A program made the position numbers. A stretch of DNA of 64,000 nt, taken from an uncultured Ignavibacteriales bacterium. GTDB lineage: Bacteria > Zixibacteria > MSB-5A5 > GN15 > FEB-12. The stretch is from positions 62,001 through 126,000 of the forward strand of contig CAYXJN010000006.1 of NCBI GenBank assembly GCA_964464605.1, in the 5' to 3' direction. Shown piece by piece: positions 6,001 through 21,000 of the stretch (position 1 is the stretch's first letter; every line of letters begins with the position of its first letter).

Positions 6001-9000
6001 AGAGCGTAGAAATACCTGTTTTTGTTTTCATTAGGCTAACAAGGAATCCTGAGGATAAATATCCAATTCTTTCATCCATTTTTTCAAATGATTCACACGG
6101 TCTGCATCCGGCAATGAAGAGAGGTCAAACGGACGGCCGCGACCGTCAAGAATAATGCCGACTACACCGCCGTGCACTTCTTTGCTGACCGGATTACCTT
6201 TTCCGGCGCCCATGTCAAATTCTTTGGTCGGTTCAAACGTTGCTTTGGCAGTTACCGGTAATCCGTTCGACTGCAGACCAAGATCGAACTTTTTCATTTC
6301 CAGATAATTCAAATTGCCACTGACCGTGCCGCCCGGCAACTCGATCGTGTACTTCATAATCGGTCCCTGCTTTTTGGTCGTGCCAGTTGGGGCTACGCAG
6401 GTACCAAGATGAATGAGACAATCTTTTTCGAACACTTCCGTTGCCGCTTGCGGCTGAACTTCGGTGAGTACGCCTAATTGCGGCATCATGAAGATTGAAT
6501 CGACCGCCAAACGGGTGACGCCTTCCGGTAAGAAAGAGTCGATCATCATAAGCGCGGACTGCTGACGGCGCGGCGCGTGGGAGAGCACACCGCCGGAGCC
6601 GATGAGCATATTCAGCGACATCATATTGACGATCGTACCGCCGGAGGCTGTCTGTTCGAAGGCATCAGCAATCGTACGCTGCTGCTGAACACCTTTGAGT
6701 TCCGTGGCGAAGTTTTTGTGCTGAATAAAGGCAAGGCGAAGCGCCTCTTTGGCAATGGCCTGTTCAAAAATCAATTCTTCAAGTGACTGTGGAATGGTAG
6801 TAGGTCGAACCATTTTGTTTTTGACACGGTTGCGCAAGTCACGTTCATCCATGAGGAATGGAACCCAACGCATGACCATCGGCAAGGTCGCTTCTGCGAA
6901 TACATTTGAAATAGAGTACGACATTCCCAAGTTTGCTGACACGGTACGGTTGAAGACCGGCGTTTTGGCATCGGGGCGGAAAACAGAGAATACGTCGGTC
7001 GTAGCGCCGCCGATATCGACACCGACTGCCTCAATATTATAGCGGTCAGCAATAGTCTGGATAATTAATCCGACCGCGCCGGGGGTCGGCATGATCGGGG
7101 CATCGGTCCATGACATCAGTTTTTTATATCCGGGTGCCTGTGCCATCACGTGTTCCATGAACATTTCATGAATTTCATCGCGAGCGGGGCCAAGATTTTC
7201 CCGTTCCAGTACCGGACGAAGATTCGGTACGATTTTCAAATCGACTTTGCCGTCGAGCGTTTCTTTCACCATTGGAGCGGCATCCTTGTTGCCGGCAAAA
7301 ATAACCGGTAGTTCATATCCGGAACCCAAGCGCGGGCGAGGGTCGGCCGCCGAAACGAGTTCGGCAATTTCAACCACGTGCGTGGTGGTGCCGCCGTCGA
7401 TACCGCCGGATAATAAAATCATATCCGGGCGCAAGCGACGAATGCGTTCGATCTGCTGGTGAGGGAGGCGTTTGTCGTTTGAGGAAATTACGTCCATCAC
7501 GATCGCACCGGCGCCGAGGGCAGCACGTTCGGCTGATTCGGCGGTCATCGATTTGACCACTCCGGCGACCATCATTTGTAGTCCGCCACCGGCTGATGAG
7601 GTAGAAATATAAACATCGGTACCGACATTCCCCTGAGCCGGACGAATGAAGTTTCCTTTTTCATCCAAAAGCTTGCGGCCGGAAAGTTCTTCCAGTTCGG
7701 CGACGGCGTTCAGTACGCCCATGGTAACATCTTCAAACGGCGCTTCAACCGTGGTCGGCGCTTCGCCGCGATGGGTTTGGCGATATTCCCCGTTTACGTA
7801 TTGAATCATGATTGCTTTGGTCGTGGTCGAGCCGCAGTCTGTCGCGACGATAATCTTGATATCTTCAGGCTTTAGTTTTGTCATCGTTTTTTCCTATAGT
7901 GTTCCCAAAAATGGCGGTACAATTGCCGCTGAGTCGAGAATTATACCAGCCGGTCGTGAAGTTGTAAACAGGGAAATGATAGCGCTTTAATGACAATGCG
8001 TTACATAACGATATTTGCTTTGGTCGTATTTGCTGCGCTGAGTTTTCCGCTTGACCTGTTCTTTCGTCCGCTGTACATTCGCGCCGGTGCAAGTCAGTGG
8101 GAATGTGTAAGTTCTCACCGCGCAGGTGGATTGTGGACCCTTGCATCATCTTGATTAAACAAAATGAACGGCTTGTCCGTTTACCGGGAAGTGACACCTA
8201 CCAATGTATTGGCCGGTCGTGCCTCCCCGCCAATAGATGACTGAAGAGAGAGGACTGTTTTGACCCTCGAAAGACCGGCAAACATCGATGCTGCCCTCCG
8301 TACTCTCATGCTCGGGCTATTGGCATTGCTGTTTTCCCTCTTTTTTTCCGTTTCTCTTTCCGCACAAACTGATTCCGTACAAGACACACTTACTGCGACC
8401 GTGCAGTCGATAGTCGATTCTACAATGGCGGCCGACTCTGCTGTGGCGGCAACACAGGCCGCGCCGGAAACGACAATGACCGGCTCGCAGGCTGAGGCCG
8501 AGCGAGTTAAATCCTCCTGGTTCGATACTAAACGATTGAATGTGTTCATCTGGATTGTGCTGTTATCCGCCGTGATTATTTTCTACATCAATCACGCGAA
8601 ATCAGGAAAACCGATTTACATCCGTAAAATGGCGGGGCTGGAAGCTATCGACGAAGCGGTCGGCCGCGCGACAGAAATGGGAAGAAAAATTTATTTCGTT
8701 CCCGGTATTCAGGATATGAATGATGTGCAGACAATCGCCGCGATTGCTATTCTGGGACGGGTCTCATCGCTGGCCGCCGAGTACGAAACCTGGCTTGAAG
8801 TGCCGAACTCCAAGTCGCTCGTGATGATTACCGCGACAGAAACGATGAAAGAAGCATATTCCCGCGCCGGTCGGCCCGACTCATTTCAGGAATCACAAGT
8901 TTACTTTATTACCGATGAACAGTTCGCGTATGCGGCCGCGCTTGACGGGATGATCGTGCGTGAACGGCCGGCCACCATATTGTATATGGGGGCGTTTTAT

Positions 9001-18000: not shown

Positions 18001-21000
18001 TTTCTTTGGACAACTCTCAGCGCGTTTCTCACGCTGGCTACATTTTCCTTTTTGTATCGTGACAATCCGTTTTATCGCATAGCGGAACATCTGGTGGTAG
18101 GAACGTCCGCCGGATACTTCGTCCTTATTCTCTGGCATAATAGTTTAGTGCCGAATATGCTCAACCGTATTCTGGAAGGGTCATGGTTGTATATCATCCC
18201 CGGTATTCTTGGTGCGATGATGTGGACTCGGTTTTCAAAGAACTATGCATGGATTTCCCGCTGGCCGCTGGGGATTTATGTCGGTATTGCCGCTGGTGTT
18301 GCCATACCGCTTGAAATGGCAAACCGTGTAAACAAACAGTTGGTGGCTGCGATGGTACCGATAAGCTGGGATAACTTTCTTTCATTCTTACCTACATCCG
18401 GTCTGTCGGATCTTATTGTTTTTACGGGAGCAATTGCTGCTCTTTGTTATTTCTTCTTTTCCAAAGCGCACACTGGTGCTTTCGGAGCCGTTGCTAAATA
18501 CGGTATCTGGATTTTGATGATCGGATTCGGAACATCGTTCGGATTTACCGTCATGGCTCGTATCTCCCTGTTCATTAATCGTATTCAATCGGTCGATCGG
18601 TGGGGGCAGGCAGCGTTTGATACCGCTAATCCGAATTATTCGTCGTTGTTTCCACTACTCTTCTGGATCGTTACCGCGTTGGTGGTAGGGTTTATTGTCG
18701 TTGAGATATACAAACATCTCAATGGCAAGAAGACCGTTGCTAATCAGTAATCGCATCGCACAGTTAAATCTGCTCTTATTTGCTTTAGTGTAGTTTATAC
18801 CGCCAATTTTTTCGAAAAATTTTAGTTGATTCAATTTTTCAATCAGAGAGTTTGCTAATACAGGTGGAGGGAAACGCCCGCGAAATCAGGCCGGATACCT
18901 GAATCGACGGGTCACCGGAAGTGGTTGATGGATATCGCGTTACGCGATCCGCGTAAGCCATTGAAAGGAAAGAAATTCATGGTGAATTAATTTTCCTGTT
19001 TCGACAAGTCAAAATCTATCAAGTTTTTGCGAGGATATTTTTTGCCTACCGGACATTTTTCGCTTGACATACAGGCAAATATTTCCGTAACATTCACGCG
19101 AGGAATCAACAATAAACCGGATAACCAGTTAACTGAGAAAGGGTAGCCACTTGAGAACACACGGAAAGTGAGGACCGCGACATGGCGTGGACTAGGAAGT
19201 CCGAATTGGGGAAAACCCCGGCCACATTCGTACCCGACTCAGAGGAATCTGAGGAACAATTTAAACTTTCGGCTGCTGAAAGGCGGCGAGAGTACCAACG
19301 GCGCTATTACCAAATGCACAAAGAAAAGGCAAAAGAATATCAGCGTCAGTACAACCTGACCCACAAGAAGAAGCTTCGTGGTGGTCGGGGAAAGAACGGT
19401 ATGTTGTCTCGCGATGCCGTTCGTTCCACATTCAATATGGCCGATATCATGCACTCTCCGGTTGAAAAGACCATTTGGATGCTCCAAAAGATCATTAACG
19501 GTGAACGCTTTTTCACGATGTAAGGCTGCTAAGAACAAAGTAATTCAAGGCGATTAGCGCGAGTTTTTGCTCTAATCGCCTTTTCTATTGCCAAGCACCG
19601 GTCTTTCCTGTACATTCCCCAAAAAATTCCTTAACTCATTAATAGGACAGAGGATATCCCATATGTCCGCCAAAACGGCGACAACTCCGAAAAAGGATGA
19701 GGTGAAAGCTGAAAAGAAGGCCCCAAAGGAGCCCCGCAAAAAAGCTAACCCCTCGTTTGACCCAAAAAACTTAACCGGAAAATACTTTTACTTCTTCGGC
19801 AACGGCAAAGCCGAGGGAGCGGCCAATATGCGTGACTTGTTGGGCGGCAAGGGAGCCAATTTGGCAGAAATGACCAATGCCGGCCTACCTGTACCTCCCG
19901 GGTTTACGATCACGACCGAGGTTTGCCGGATTTATTATGACGGTTCTCTTGATGTACCGAAGCCGATCGACAAAGAGATGCTCAAATACGTCGAAATGCT
20001 CGAACAGGCAACCAAGCGGAAATTCGGCGATCCGACCAATCCGCTTTTGCTGTCTGTCCGGTCAGGCTCAAAATTCTCAATGCCGGGCATGATGGATACG
20101 ATTTTGAATCTTGGGCTCAATGATGAAACCTGCGAAGGGTTAGCGACTGCAACCGGCGACGCCCGTTTTGCCTATGACAATTATCGCCGTTTTATCGCCA
20201 TGTTCTCAAACGTCGTTTTGGGGATCGACAAGGAATTGTTCGAGGAGGTCGTTACCAAGCGAAAACAGGAACGACGTGTTCGTCAGGACAGTTCACTGCA
20301 GGCGGCAGACTTAAAAGAGATCGTCAAAAAATTCAAACAGATTATCAAGCGGAAATCAGGGGATGTGTTTCCCGATGACGCTTTGGCACAGCTTCGTTTG
20401 GCGCGGGATGCCGTATTTCGCAGTTGGAATAATCCGCGGGCAATTTCCTATCGTCGCCAGTTTAACATCCCGTCTGAAATCGGCACGGCAGTCAATATCC
20501 AGGCTATGGTATTCGGTAATCGAGGGAATTCCTCAGGTACGGGAGTTGGTTTTACCCGTAACCCGTCGACCGGAGTAAAAGAATTTTACGGCGAGTTCCT
20601 GGTGAATGCGCAGGGAGAGGATGTTGTCGCCGGTGTGCGCACTCCGCTTCCGATCAGCAAAATGGCGGATGAACTTCCGCAGGCGTTCAAGCAGCTGAAA
20701 GAAATTACTACCCGTTTAGAAAAGCACTATCGGGATGTTCAGGATTTTGAGTTTACGGTCGAAGGCGGCAAGCTCTACATGCTGCAAACCCGCAATGCCA
20801 AACGAACGACGGCGGCTGCGATTCATATTGCCGTTGATATGGTAAAAGAAAAACTGATTACCAAAGAAGAAGCGCTGATGCGCATCGAGCCGCAACAGCT
20901 CGATCAATTGCTGCATCCGACTCTGGATCCGAAAGCGAACTACGAAGTCATAGCGAAAGGATTGCCGGCATCACCCGGTGCGGCATCCGGAAAAGTCTAT

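What a model noticed while it worked through the whole genome (the two positions that open the first line are those of the whole stretch)
8260..18750. Five paralogous copies of an undescribed four-gene membrane module (DUF6754 plus three families without any Pfam model) [...]
A cassette of four integral-membrane proteins (DUF6754 protein; a ~220-aa polytopic protein; a ~290-aa protein with a Rossmann-like domain between two TM helices; a ~210-aa polytopic protein) occurs five times: three in tandem here (C6:70260-80750), one at C3:13096-16112 and one at C2:37910-40738. I read it as a so far undescribed hetero-tetrameric membrane machine (transporter or envelope motor) that diversified into five specialised paralogues, three of which carry N-terminal extensions of 80-150 residues on the DUF6754 subunit, possibly driven by the neighbouring actin-fold (MutL/PF13941) ATPase g01597. 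It would define three new protein families and a new membrane system that is a hallmar [...]
Evidence so far: All-vs-all BLAST: each of the three unnamed proteins forms a family of exactly 5 members, in the same gene order behind the 5 DUF6754 genes. Only DUF6754 has a Pfam hit (1e-101 to 1e-122, call 33); the other three get only sub-threshold hits (best E 0.4, 0.005 and 0.8, all far under the curated cut-offs; call 35). PF20539 search: 41 of 41 sampled Zixibacteria genomes have 2-6 copies (30 have 5), often three in tandem, 0 of 14 control genomes. relatives.tsv: DUF6754 in 284 of 284 other Zixibacteria, 3.3% of bacterial and 1.5% of archaeal species genomes; neighbours.tsv: next to PF13941 in 1096 of 5609 genomes with both, and the C2 copy next to an SBP_bac_1/BPD_transp_1 ABC importer in 95 of 1 [...]
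(Added by a program. Inside this text positions count along the whole contig: contig position 62,001 is position 1 of the stretch shown here. "Call 12" and the like, gene names such as g00115 and contig names such as C1 are that model's own, and its searches are not shown. The text may have been shortened before it was handed on; [...] marks where a part breaks off. The agent that wrote the report below was given it as the finding of a first reader that could run no searches.)

Follow-up and report, generated by a model that had tools for sequence, protein, structure and literature searches.

The report
Uncharacterised membrane module with actin-fold ATPase
Three tandem copies of a four-gene set of membrane proteins of unknown function lie here, and across many bacterial phyla this set travels with an actin-fold ATPase and three further unnamed proteins, which points to a widespread cell-envelope system that nobody has yet described.

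Summary
Window 8260-18750 holds three tandem cassettes A-B-C-D on the + strand. A is a DUF6754 protein, B and D are six-helix membrane proteins, and C has a periplasmic alpha/beta domain between membrane helices. Two more cassettes lie on other contigs. B, C and D match no Pfam or NCBIfam model.

In 74 loci from many phyla, 76 of 79 A genes are followed by B, C, D in order. In a phylum where DUF6754 is patchy (46 of 101 genomes), four more families track it almost exactly. These are a 600-aa GlmL/MutL-like ASKHA ATPase (window 6031-7884), the soluble protein N373 (window 4107-5228), and two small proteins, S111 and S149. Three of these are found in none of the 55 DUF6754-negative genomes. All eight often sit on one strand.

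The conserved surfaces face the cytoplasm and the variable ectodomains (FN3, beta-propeller) face outwards.

My best reading is one shared cytoplasmic ATPase engine that drives several interchangeable inner-membrane modules acting on the envelope. Function and physical binding remain untested. No paper mentions the family.

The parts
4107..5228 (-). N373: a soluble 373-aa protein with an N-terminal barrel-sandwich-hybrid (lipoyl-like) domain, an alpha/beta middle part and a KOW-like end. It is a single-copy partner of the system.
   Evidence: Pfam gives only RnfC_N at 0.0024. Across 23 family members, Biotin_lipoyl matches 16, RnfC_N 11 and NQRA_N 7. Identity across phyla is 50-76 %. It is present in 45 of 46 DUF6754-positive and 0 of 55 DUF6754-negative genomes.
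5246..6079 (-). N277: a 277-aa protein with an N-terminal signal or anchor and a C-terminal TM helix plus an Arg-rich tail. It lies between the MutL and N373 genes only in close relatives.
   Evidence: Translation. Homologues at 30-44 % identity occur in 6 loci, all of the window's type. No family hit.
6031..7884 (-). GlmL/MutL-like ASKHA (actin-fold) ATPase, 617 aa, single copy in the genome.
   Evidence: PF13941 at 1.1e-127. It falls below the NCBIfam GlmL cut-off (234 bits against 475). The motifs DCGSTTTK, DIGGATTD and GSGGV are present. One copy in the genome.
7940..8079 (.). Divergent promoter-like region between the MutL gene and A1.
   Evidence: Consensus scan: 11 of 12 on the - strand at 7968-7940, and 9 of 12 on the + strand at 8051-8079. 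The number of matches in the region is not above shuffles.
8260..9288 (+). A1: signal peptide, Ser/Thr/Ala-rich linker, TM helix, cytoplasmic DUF6754 alpha/beta domain, TM helix.
   Evidence: PF20539 at 3.8e-118, residues 84-337. AF2 pLDDT 84.4, with the core above 90. Topology.
9294..9968 (+). B1: six-TM protein with a conserved N-terminal MRRxIP and a cytoplasmic SASYRAFRARN loop.
   Evidence: No family among 60 members.
9968..10873 (+). C1: two N-terminal TM helices, a periplasmic Rossmann-like domain, and a C-terminal TM helix with conserved Q and H.
   Evidence: AF2 pLDDT 95.3. Alignment of 74 sequences. Topology.
10870..11520 (+). D1: six-TM protein with conserved cytoplasmic loops YKDNPFYK, RWP and FFSKEHxGxFG.
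   Evidence: No family among 68 members. 2801 representative clusters in the 1.84-billion-protein library.
11550..12773 (+). A2: signal peptide, FN3 ectodomain, TM helix, DUF6754 domain, TM helix.
   Evidence: PF20539 at 1.8e-121. The family profile matches titin FN3 domains at 7e-19 over profile positions 37-135.
12777..13451 (+). B2
   Evidence: 43 % identical to B1.
13459..14361 (+). C2. The longest ORF starts at 13387 inside B2; the ATG at 13459 fits the family.
14358..15170 (+). D2, with an extra N-terminal hydrophobic segment.
   Evidence: 49 % identical to D1.
15175..16434 (+). A3: signal peptide, FN3 ectodomain, TM helix, DUF6754 domain, TM helix.
   Evidence: PF20539 at 6.2e-115..
16447..17106 (+). 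B3
   Evidence: 43 % identical to B1.
17110..17973 (+). C3, with a single N-terminal TM helix.
   Evidence: 35 % identical to C1.
17986..18750 (+). D3, with a C-terminal extension that holds one more TM helix.
   Evidence: 40 % identical to D1.

Best explanation
The A-B-C-D cassette encodes the membrane part of a multi-component inner-membrane machine that has not been described.

Its cytoplasmic part is a GlmL/MutL-like actin-fold ATPase, the soluble protein N373 and two small proteins (S111 and S149). This part is encoded once per genome.

Inferred working model:
- B and D (six helices each) form the membrane core.
- A adds a very highly conserved cytoplasmic alpha/beta domain and, outside the membrane, a variable ectodomain.
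- C adds a periplasmic alpha/beta domain.
- The ATPase module docks on the conserved cytoplasmic face: the A domain, the B N-terminal MRRxIP peptide, and the B and D loops.
- ATP-driven movements pass through the membrane to the outward-facing parts, which do work on the envelope (export, assembly or mechanical work).

In this phylum the membrane module was multiplied early to five versions with different outward-facing parts, all served by the one ATPase module.

Shown here: paralogy, conserved gene order, co-occurrence, fusions, folds and predicted topology.
Inferred only: physical binding, ATP coupling, direction of action and the substrate.
For: 1. Fixed gene order. 76 of 79 A genes with at least 3.2 kb of downstream sequence, in 74 loci of many phyla, are followed by B, C, D in that order. 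Clustering of 821 ORFs from those loci finds only A, B, C, D, N373 and MutL widely conserved, plus the two small families.

2. Linkage to the ATPase set.
- MutL/N373 lie directly upstream of the first A gene in 16 of 42 loci with enough flank: 10 on the same strand, 6 divergent.
- Two whole-cluster orders occur: S149-S111-MutL-N373-A-B-C-D (L026, L037, L061) and A-B-C-D-S149-S111-MutL-N373 (L088, L089).
- N373 was found elsewhere in 5 of 5 genomes where it is not adjacent.

3. Phyletic pattern in one phylum-level sample of 101 genomes. DUF6754 is in 46. Within those 46, N373 is in 45, S111 in 44 and S149 in 40, and none of the three is in the 55 without DUF6754. PF13941 is in 44 of the 46 and in 2 of the 55, the latter as roughly 500-aa GlmL-type ORFs. 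N373 and C are also missing from 5 of 5 DUF6754-negative genomes of another phylum.

4. A natural MutL + N373-like fusion of 937 aa (L085).

5. The ASKHA phosphate and adenosine motifs are intact in the window's MutL-like protein (the motif definitions are recalled knowledge).

6. The conserved face is cytoplasmic and the variable face is outside.
- The A domain is 53-72 % identical across phyla, with 39 invariant columns in 75 sequences.
- The conserved motifs of B and D fall in predicted cytoplasmic loops.
- A ectodomains vary: FN3, PQQ-type beta-propeller at 1.7e-24, and 700-900-aa regions without any Pfam hit.
- D carries variable N-terminal extensions and loop inserts.

7. One MutL and one N373 stand against five cassettes in this genome.

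8. The paralogues are old. A1, A2 and A3 fall in separate supported clades, each with orthologues in other genomes (SH-aLRT 99, 95, 95).

9. The system is near-universal in whole phyla (26 of 26, 114 of 121, 17 of 17), has housekeeping neighbours and has no PADLOC match. This speaks for a core cell function and against a mobile or defence element.
Against: - No experiment and no validated structure prediction shows that any two of these proteins touch.
- The ATPase set is next to a cassette in only 16 of 42 informative loci. In this genome it is next to only one of five cassettes, and S149/S111 sit on another contig.
- No part of A, B, C or D resembles a known motor, export or transport component. 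The fold searches return only generic Rossmann-like matches that are tied with one another: A has best Z 10.1 with 132 chains at Z >= 8, and C has best Z 9.8.
- GlmL-type proteins are known as accessory proteins of soluble B12 enzymes, not as membrane-machine motors (family annotation).
- Topology rests on hydropathy and the positive-inside rule only.
- Gene order is not absolute: one locus reads A-B-D-C, one has a second C, and one has no detectable D.
- Completeness of the 101 sampled genomes was not reported.
Confidence: 0.45

Rival explanations
1. The cassette is a new solute transporter. B and D form the permease, C is a membrane-tethered periplasmic binding domain, and A is a cytoplasmic regulatory or energising domain. 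The five paralogues carry different substrates. The link to the MutL set would then be regulatory or metabolic.
For: - There are two six-helix subunits plus a tethered periplasmic alpha/beta domain.
- The fold list for C holds several type-I periplasmic sugar-binding proteins (3rot Z 8.7, 5xss 7.8, 8wl5 7.8), and the list for A holds KTN/RCK domains of K+ transporters (5but 9.4, 6i8v 9.3).
- The C2-contig copy lies head to head with an SBP_bac_1 gene plus two BPD_transp_1 genes that have no ATPase gene of their own.
- Multiplication into paralogues is common among transporters.
Against: - Those Z-scores are tied with dozens of unrelated Rossmann folds.
- C keeps the same invariant acidic and polar residues (E90, D173, Q242, E257, H277) in all paralogues and phyla, which is not expected of binding sites for different solutes.
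- The most conserved parts are cytoplasmic.
- The variable parts are large secreted domains (FN3, beta-propeller), which importers do not normally carry.
- There is no hit to any transporter family among 60 B and 68 D sequences.
- This reading gives no role to four co-occurring cytoplasmic or small proteins.
Confidence: 0.2
2. The system is a membrane-bound enzyme complex for the synthesis or modification of an envelope lipid or polymer. The A domain is the catalytic, nucleotide-binding part on the inner face and C acts on the outer face. The ASKHA protein serves as a kinase or activating enzyme.
For: - The A domain has enzyme-like conservation, with many invariant charged residues (R122, R136, E139, E194, R234, E249, E255, D282, E288, E289).
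- Fold neighbours include the N-domains of the GT-B glycosyltransferases LpxB (Z 9.9), PseG (9.2) and MurG (8.8), and sirtuin-type NAD-binding folds (10.1).
- The GlmL family is related to hydantoinase-type ATP-using enzymes (Pfam family text, recalled).
- Single examples of envelope-synthesis neighbours exist: Glyphos_transf and PS decarboxylase in L082, and UDP-glucose dehydrogenase and a D-Ala-D-Ala carboxypeptidase near the C2 copy.
Against: - No classical nucleotide-binding glycine motif can be seen in A.
- The fold matches are generic and tied.
- No biosynthetic gene is conserved next to the cluster in 74 loci.
- Five paralogous enzyme complexes that differ mainly in secreted FN3-type domains would be unusual.
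Confidence: 0.12
3. The system is a family of trans-membrane sensors. Variable ectodomains on A, and sometimes D, sense outside cues, and the conserved cytoplasmic domain passes the signal to the MutL/N373 module.
For: The combination of a variable outside, a conserved inside and several paralogues per genome is the pattern of receptor families.
Against: - No known output or transmitter domain (kinase, cyclase, HTH) was found in any of the eight families.
- Four membrane subunits per receptor would be very heavy for a sensor.
- A5 has no ectodomain and A4 only a short one.
- Near-universal presence at a fixed copy number in whole phyla is unlike sensor repertoires.
Confidence: 0.08

Closest known systems
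GlmL/MutL accessory proteins of glutamate mutase and the related ornithine-degradation protein (PF13941, NCBIfam NF040745/NF040744)
   Same: The window's 617-aa protein matches PF13941 end to end at 1.1e-127 and keeps the ASKHA nucleotide motifs.
   Different: - It scores 234 and 218 bits against equivalog cut-offs of 475 and 600.
- It is about 150 residues longer, with an extra C-terminal beta-rich part.
- It has no glutamate-mutase genes next to it.
- It co-occurs with membrane proteins. The two genomes of the 101-genome sample that have PF13941 but no DUF6754 carry it in ORFs of roughly 500 aa.
Actin-fold proteins that dock on inner-membrane assemblies, such as PilM-PilN-PilO of type IV pili, GspL-GspM of type II secretion, and MreB-MreC-MreD (recalled knowledge, an analogy only)
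   Same: A cytoplasmic actin-fold ATPase is encoded together with bitopic proteins that carry periplasmic domains and with small polytopic proteins. B has an invariant cytoplasmic N-terminal peptide (MRRxIP), reminiscent of the PilN N-terminal peptide that PilM binds.
   Different: No sequence or profile similarity to any of these families was found. The ATPase belongs to another ASKHA branch. No secretin, pilin or peptidoglycan-synthesis partner is conserved nearby.
Rnf / Na+-NQR ion-translocating complexes
   Same: The subunit plan is similar: two roughly 200-220-aa six-helix subunits, one bitopic subunit with a periplasmic domain, one with a cytoplasmic domain, and a soluble subunit. The N-terminal barrel-sandwich-hybrid domain of that soluble subunit matches RnfC_N in 11 and NQRA_N in 7 of 23 N373 sequences.
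   Different: No Rnf-Nqr membrane family appears among the hits of 60 B and 68 D sequences. No RnfD/NqrB-like subunit is present. No Fe-S or flavin-binding family was found in any part. The barrel-sandwich-hybrid fold is widespread.
Binding-protein-dependent and tethered-binding-domain transporters (ABC, TRAP)
   Same: Polytopic subunits occur together with a periplasmic alpha/beta domain. Type-I binding-protein lobes appear in the fold list of C at Z 7.5-8.7.
   Different: There is no ABC ATPase and no BPD_transp or DctQ/M family in the cassette. The C domain is a single lobe with residues invariant across paralogues.

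Membership tests
DUF6754 (PF20539) | Match to the Pfam model above its gathering score of 27 bits. 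| tested here: met
   A1-A5 score 393.7, 404.6, 383.2, 395.7 and 335.6 bits, each over nearly the whole 257-position model.
GlmL/MutL family (PF13941) | Match to the Pfam model, and ASKHA nucleotide-binding motifs. | tested here: met
   427 bits over model positions 1-450. DCGSTTTK, DIGGATTD and GSGGV are present (the motif definitions are recalled).
GlmL proper (methylaspartate mutase accessory protein, NF040745) or Or-4 (NF040744) | Score above the NCBIfam equivalog cut-off, and a glutamate-mutase or ornithine-pathway gene context. | tested here: not met
   234.4 bits against a cut-off of 475, and 217.9 against 600. The neighbours are membrane genes, a peptidase and PPDK.
Fibronectin type III domain (N-terminal extension of A2, A3 and most A proteins) | Profile match to solved FN3 domains, or to Pfam fn3. 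| tested here: met
   The profile of 75 A sequences matches titin FN3 at 7e-19 and 1.6e-17 and an Fn3-like protein at 5.6e-4, over profile positions 37-139. As single sequences, A2 and A3 do not reach Pfam fn3 at E <= 0.01; one relative (L063) reaches 5.2e-4, below the cut-off.
ABC transporter | An ABC ATPase subunit and a known ABC membrane-domain family in the unit. | tested here: not met
   No ABC_tran, BPD_transp or ABC2 family passes any cut-off in the 12 window proteins. Among 60 B sequences TMD0_ABC appears in 6 (best E 2.1e-4) and ABC2_membrane_3 in 1 (E 0.012); neither was compared with its Pfam cut-off. The ABC genes near the C2 copy are separate operons.
Rnf/Nqr complex | Rnf-Nqr family membrane subunits, an RnfD/NqrB subunit, and flavin or Fe-S binding parts. 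| tested here: not met
   None of these families is among the hits of the B, C or D proteins. Only the generic N-terminal hybrid domain of N373 matches RnfC_N/NQRA_N weakly.
MotA/ExbB/TolQ-type stator motors | A MotA_ExbB family subunit plus a MotB/ExbD/TolR-type partner with a membrane-embedded Asp. | tested here: not met
   No such family is among the hits of 60 B and 68 D sequences at E <= 0.1. The conserved acidic residues of D (D24, E32) lie in or near a predicted cytoplasmic loop.
Sirtuin / DHS-like NAD-binding fold (A cytoplasmic domain) | A fold match standing clear of other Rossmann-like folds, and NAD-binding motifs. | tested here: inconclusive
   Top VIA rows are 3u31 (Z 10.1, rmsd 3.5, 139 aligned) and 5ojn (Z 9.9). 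They are tied with LpxB (9.9), PGK (9.9), an SDR (9.5) and KTN (9.4), and 132 chains reach Z >= 8. The best Foldseek hit has E 1.4e-3 and TM 0.25.
Type-I periplasmic binding protein (C periplasmic domain) | A two-lobe binding fold with a hinge. | tested here: inconclusive
   The matches cover single lobes only: 3rot Z 8.7 over 121 residues. The top row is the uncharacterised MT0777 (1kjn, Z 9.8, 140 aligned).
Known anti-phage defence systems (PADLOC) | Match to any PADLOC model. | tested here: not met
   0 families for A1, B1, C1, D1, MutL, N373 and N277 at E <= 0.01.

The most novel reading that the evidence does not exclude
This is an ancient machine of the cell envelope, powered by an actin-fold ATPase, that has not been recognised before. 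It is built from eight protein families, and six of them (B, C, D, N373, S111, S149) match no family model above its cut-off; B, C, D and N373 were scanned directly, S111 and S149 only through two homologues each, none from this genome. One cytoplasmic engine (the GlmL-like ATPase with N373, S111 and S149) services several interchangeable inner-membrane modules whose outward-facing domains differ. On this reading it is a new class of trans-membrane export or motor apparatus, comparable in rank to Tol-Pal, Lol or the gliding and T9SS motors. It is near-universal in several poorly studied phyla.
Probability: 0.3. Interest if true: 0.9.

Novelty: categorically new. Interest (0 to 1): 0.72.

Why it matters
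The system is close to universal in at least three phylum-level groups: 26 of 26, 114 of 121 and 17 of 17 sampled genomes. It is also present in half of a fourth group. The D family alone has 2801 representative clusters (E <= 0.001) in a library of 1.84 billion proteins.

Even so, six of its eight families match no family model above its cut-off, and no paper in the searchable library mentions the one that has a name. The A domain is 53-72 % identical across phyla, a degree of constraint usually seen in core machinery.

If the working model holds, it would add a new kind of energised inner-membrane apparatus, and a new job for the GlmL branch of actin-fold ATPases, in organisms abundant in sediments, sludge and the deep sea. 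It would also give names and a testable hypothesis to thousands of 'hypothetical proteins'.

Even if the function turns out to be ordinary transport, three to six new protein families and their architecture would be defined.

Tried and rejected
- **Complex prediction**. B, C and D were folded with A residues 88-342 as the partner. The tool's verdict was 'no answer': the score did not separate from the control in which C was replaced. This is neither support for nor evidence against binding.
- **Internal homology.** hhalign gives 0.8 % probability for B against D and 4.7 % for A against C. The idea of a pseudo-symmetric pair of pairs is not supported by sequence, although both alpha/beta domains hit 1kjn (Z 9.3 and 9.8).
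- **PDB by sequence.** Nothing for the DUF6754 domain, C, N373 or MutL.
- **Foldseek against PDB.** Only generic Rossmann-like rows with TM 0.2-0.3.
- **ESM Atlas.** N373 and a C homologue fall only into clusters of hypothetical proteins. The Atlas could not read the A domain.
- **Defence system.** No PADLOC hit.
- **Literature.** 'DUF6754', 'PF20539', 'PF13941' and 'GlmL' + 'actin-like' returned 0 papers each. 'GlmL' alone returned 869 papers; none of the 15 listed concerns this protein (listing only).
- **N373 as a biotin or lipoyl carrier.** The lysine at the hairpin is not among the invariant or near-invariant columns, so this was rejected.
- **A D-S149 fusion**, suspected from ORF lengths, was not confirmed. 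The 338-aa ORF of L092 has an S149 part, but its first 209 residues do not match the D profile.
- **ORF 7865-8197 (-)**, 110 aa, has no family hit in the window and no homologue in the loci. A promoter-like site lies inside it. It is treated as not a gene.

Full report
**What is in the window**

Positions 8260-18750 hold twelve + strand ORFs in three head-to-tail cassettes. The gaps between cassettes are 29 and 4 nt, and several stop and start codons overlap, so the array looks like one operon. Each cassette encodes four proteins:
- A, 342-419 aa.
- B, 219-224 aa.
- C, about 287-301 aa.
- D, 216-270 aa.

The copies are clearly paralogous. B is 43 and 43 %, C 40 and 35 %, and D 49 and 40 % identical to copy 1. 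tblastn of all twelve proteins against the laid genome (2.8 Mb, 18 contigs) finds exactly five places for every family, always in the order A-B-C-D. Three are here, one is at C3:13.1-16.1 kb and one at C2:37.9-40.7 kb.

Only A matches a family model. DUF6754 scores between 2e-100 and 1.8e-121. Nothing in Pfam or NCBIfam passes a cut-off for the other nine window proteins. No family recurs when all 60 B and 68 D sequences collected later are scanned one by one.

**Anatomy of the four proteins**

A1-A3 begin with signal peptides.
- The extension of A2 and A3, and of most relatives, is an FN3 domain. The profile of 75 A sequences matches titin FN3 domains at 7e-19.
- A1 has a Ser/Thr/Ala-rich linker instead. 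A4 has a short N-terminus and A5 almost none.
- Then come a TM helix, the roughly 230-residue DUF6754 domain and a last TM helix.
- The positive-inside rule places the DUF6754 domain in the cytoplasm. This agrees with the secreted N-terminus.

AlphaFold2 with my alignments gave confident models. A scored pLDDT 84.4, above 90 over residues 120-330. C scored pLDDT 95.3.

C has one or two N-terminal helices preceded by an invariant Arg-Arg. Next come an alpha/beta domain predicted to be periplasmic and a C-terminal helix with conserved Gln and His, followed by a basic tail.

B and D each have about six helices. Their best-conserved motifs all fall in predicted cytoplasmic segments:
- B: MRRxIP at the very N-terminus, SASYRAFRARN, and LGIER.
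- D: YKDNPFYK, RWP, and FFSKEHxGxFG.

Fold searches gave no specific relative.
- Foldseek returned Rossmann-like rows with TM 0.2-0.3.
- In the exhaustive VIA search the best rows for A are tied: sirtuins at Z 10.1 and 9.9, LpxB 9.9, PGK 9.9 and KTN domains 9.3-9.4. 132 chains score Z >= 8.
- For C the best row is the uncharacterised MT0777 (Z 9.8), followed by single lobes of sugar-binding proteins at about Z 8.
- Profile comparison shows no homology of A with C or of B with D.

**The unit is conserved far beyond this phylum, and it is larger than four genes**

A scan of one genome per species with the A alignment returned 621 confirmed relatives. The best 74 loci were kept. By their record titles they come from Zixibacteria, WOR-3, Stahlbacteria, Planctomycetota, Cloacimonadota, Fermentibacteria/Aegiribacteria, Marinimicrobia, Gemmatimonadota, Acidobacteriota and others. 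The A domain is still 53-72 % identical.

In these loci, 76 of 79 A genes with enough downstream sequence are followed by B, C, D in order. The exceptions are one solo A and two loci where B was not detected.

Clustering all 821 ORFs of the loci shows only two further widely shared families:
- The GlmL/MutL-like protein, which lies divergently upstream of A1 in the window (6031-7884, PF13941 at 1.1e-127).
- The 373-aa protein next to it (4107-5228, here called N373).

They lie directly upstream of the first A gene in 16 of 42 informative loci, on the same strand in 10 of these.

Looking into clusters of another phylum showed two more small conserved proteins:
- S149: two helices plus a domain of about 90 residues.
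- S111.

Both whole-cluster orders occur: S149-S111-MutL-N373-A-B-C-D and A-B-C-D-S149-S111-MutL-N373. In the window's own genome S149 and S111 form a separate overlapping gene pair on contig C3 (L090:6198-6671 and 5737-6201, - strand).

**Co-occurrence**

The cleanest test is a phylum-level group in which DUF6754 is patchy. It is the group of the genome that holds locus L054, and 101 of its genomes were sampled. I compared the handles listed by five searches of the same sample.

| Family | In the 46 DUF6754-positive genomes | In the 55 DUF6754-negative genomes |
|---|---|---|
| N373 | 45 | 0 |
| S111 | 44 | 0 |
| S149 | 40 | 0 |
| PF13941 | 44 | 2 (ORFs of roughly 500 aa) |

The few misses are in small genomes or lie at contig ends. 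Genome completeness was not reported for this sample.

Further points:
- N373 was present elsewhere in 5 of 5 genomes from loci where it is not adjacent.
- N373 and C were both missing from 5 of 5 DUF6754-negative genomes of the Cloacimonadota-type group.
- One genome encodes a 937-aa fusion of the MutL-like protein with an N373-like part.
- The window's genome has one MutL and one N373 gene for five cassettes.

**Distribution and age**

DUF6754 was found as follows:
- In 26 of 26 high-quality genomes of the window's phylum. 21 have five matches, 3 have four and 2 have three, often with three spaced about 3.6 kb apart.
- In 114 of 121 genomes of the Cloacimonadota-type group.
- In 17 of 17 genomes of a small phylum-level group.
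- In 0 of 14 control genomes in each of these searches.

So it is a hallmark of several phyla, not of one.

A tree of the A domain (75 sequences) puts A1, A2 and A3 in three separate supported clades with orthologues from other genomes. SH-aLRT is 99, 95 and 95, and the A2 clade also holds sequences from other phyla. A4 and A5 sit on long branches. The triplication is therefore old.

The D profile finds 2801 representative clusters at E <= 0.001 in 1.84 billion proteins. Many have N-terminal extensions or loop inserts, and 14 of 14 that I scanned have no Pfam domain.

Ectodomains of A vary widely:
- FN3.
- A PQQ-type beta-propeller, at 1.7e-24 and 1.2e-14.
- Regions of 700-900 residues without any Pfam match in the Cloacimonadota-type group.

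**How it most likely works**

What is shown:
- Eight families inherited, arranged and lost together.
- A cytoplasmic ASKHA protein with intact nucleotide motifs.
- A membrane module whose conserved face is predicted to be cytoplasmic and whose variable parts are predicted to be outside.
- One copy of the cytoplasmic set against several copies of the membrane set.

From this I infer a machine in which the ATPase set docks on the cytoplasmic face of A-B-C-D and drives changes that act on the periplasm or outer layers. The different ectodomains would give each paralogous module its own target. I put this at about 0.45.

The rivals are:
- A new transporter with C as a tethered binding domain (0.2).
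- A membrane enzyme complex (0.12).
- A sensor family (0.08).

The invariant residues of C across paralogues and phyla, the secreted FN3 and propeller domains, and the four co-occurring cytoplasmic or small partners fit the transporter reading least well. None of these points excludes it.

**What this is not**

- It is not a defence system. There is no PADLOC hit, it is near-universal in whole phyla, and its neighbours are housekeeping genes.
- The ATPase is not a true GlmL. It scores under the equivalog cut-offs and has no mutase genes nearby.
- It shows no sequence membership in the ABC, Rnf/Nqr or MotA/ExbB families.

**Limits**

- Binding is untested. The one complex job gave no verdict and counts for nothing.
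- No RNA data were available.
- Topology is predicted only.
- Gene order has rare variants: A-B-D-C, a second C, and a locus without a detectable D.
- Full-text searches for DUF6754, PF20539 and PF13941 found no paper. Subscription journals are not covered by that library.

Noticed in passing
L090:5737-6671 (- strand; G000 contig C3:158737-159671): The window's genome keeps the two small partner genes S149 (157 aa) and S111 (154 aa) as an overlapping pair. They lie far from every cassette and from the MutL gene, between a 597-aa lipoprotein-like gene and a TPR gene next to gyrB.
   Followed up: partly
L085:2196-5009 (+): A 937-aa natural fusion of a MutL (PF13941, 3.2e-89) part with an N373-like barrel-sandwich part. 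The same genome also has a stand-alone N373.
   Followed up: partly
L086:3465-9960 (-) and L087:6034-10473 (+): In two small genomes, six to eight extra genes sit between D and the MutL gene on the same strand. Five of them in L086 are paralogous membrane proteins with 1-4 predicted helices (221-389 aa) that share a conserved C-terminal motif. None has a Pfam match.
   Followed up: partly
L082:8226-12107 (+): In one Cloacimonadota-type genome, a 952-aa A protein is followed by a phosphatidylserine decarboxylase gene rather than by B, C, D. The cassette before it is preceded by a Glyphos_transf + TPR gene.
   Followed up: no
L093 (G179:C46:1000-10500), L091, L092: Variants of the cluster. L093 reads A-B-D-C and has a 622-aa protein ending in an S149 part. 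L091 has a second C-like gene after D. In L092 no D was detected.
   Followed up: partly
L002:8767-11749 (+) and L002:3411-5647 (-) (G000 contig C2): The fifth cassette lies head to head with a sugar-type ABC importer operon (SBP_bac_1 plus two BPD_transp_1 genes) that has no ATPase gene. On its own strand it is followed by an ABC-2 exporter pair, a D-Ala-D-Ala carboxypeptidase and a UDP-glucose dehydrogenase.
   Followed up: no
window 7865-8197 (-): A 110-aa ORF between the MutL gene and A1 has no family hit and no homologue in related loci. The best promoter-like site of the region (11 of 12) lies inside it, so it is probably not a gene.
   Followed up: partly
window 5246-6079 (-): N277 is a protein with a signal or anchor and a C-terminal helix plus an Arg-rich tail. 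It is inserted between the MutL and N373 genes only in the window's close relatives (6 loci). It has a weak PsbP-like hit (E 0.032).
   Followed up: no
(ESM Atlas rows 4-5): Chloroflexota relatives of C are 470-530 aa. Their clusters carry Zn-ribbon families in 18-66 % of members, so an added Zn-ribbon domain is likely.
   Followed up: no
window 1-4110 (-): Upstream of N373 lie an 806-aa M1-family peptidase and a DUF7948 / SBBP beta-propeller protein that runs off the window. They are not conserved with the system in other loci.
   Followed up: no
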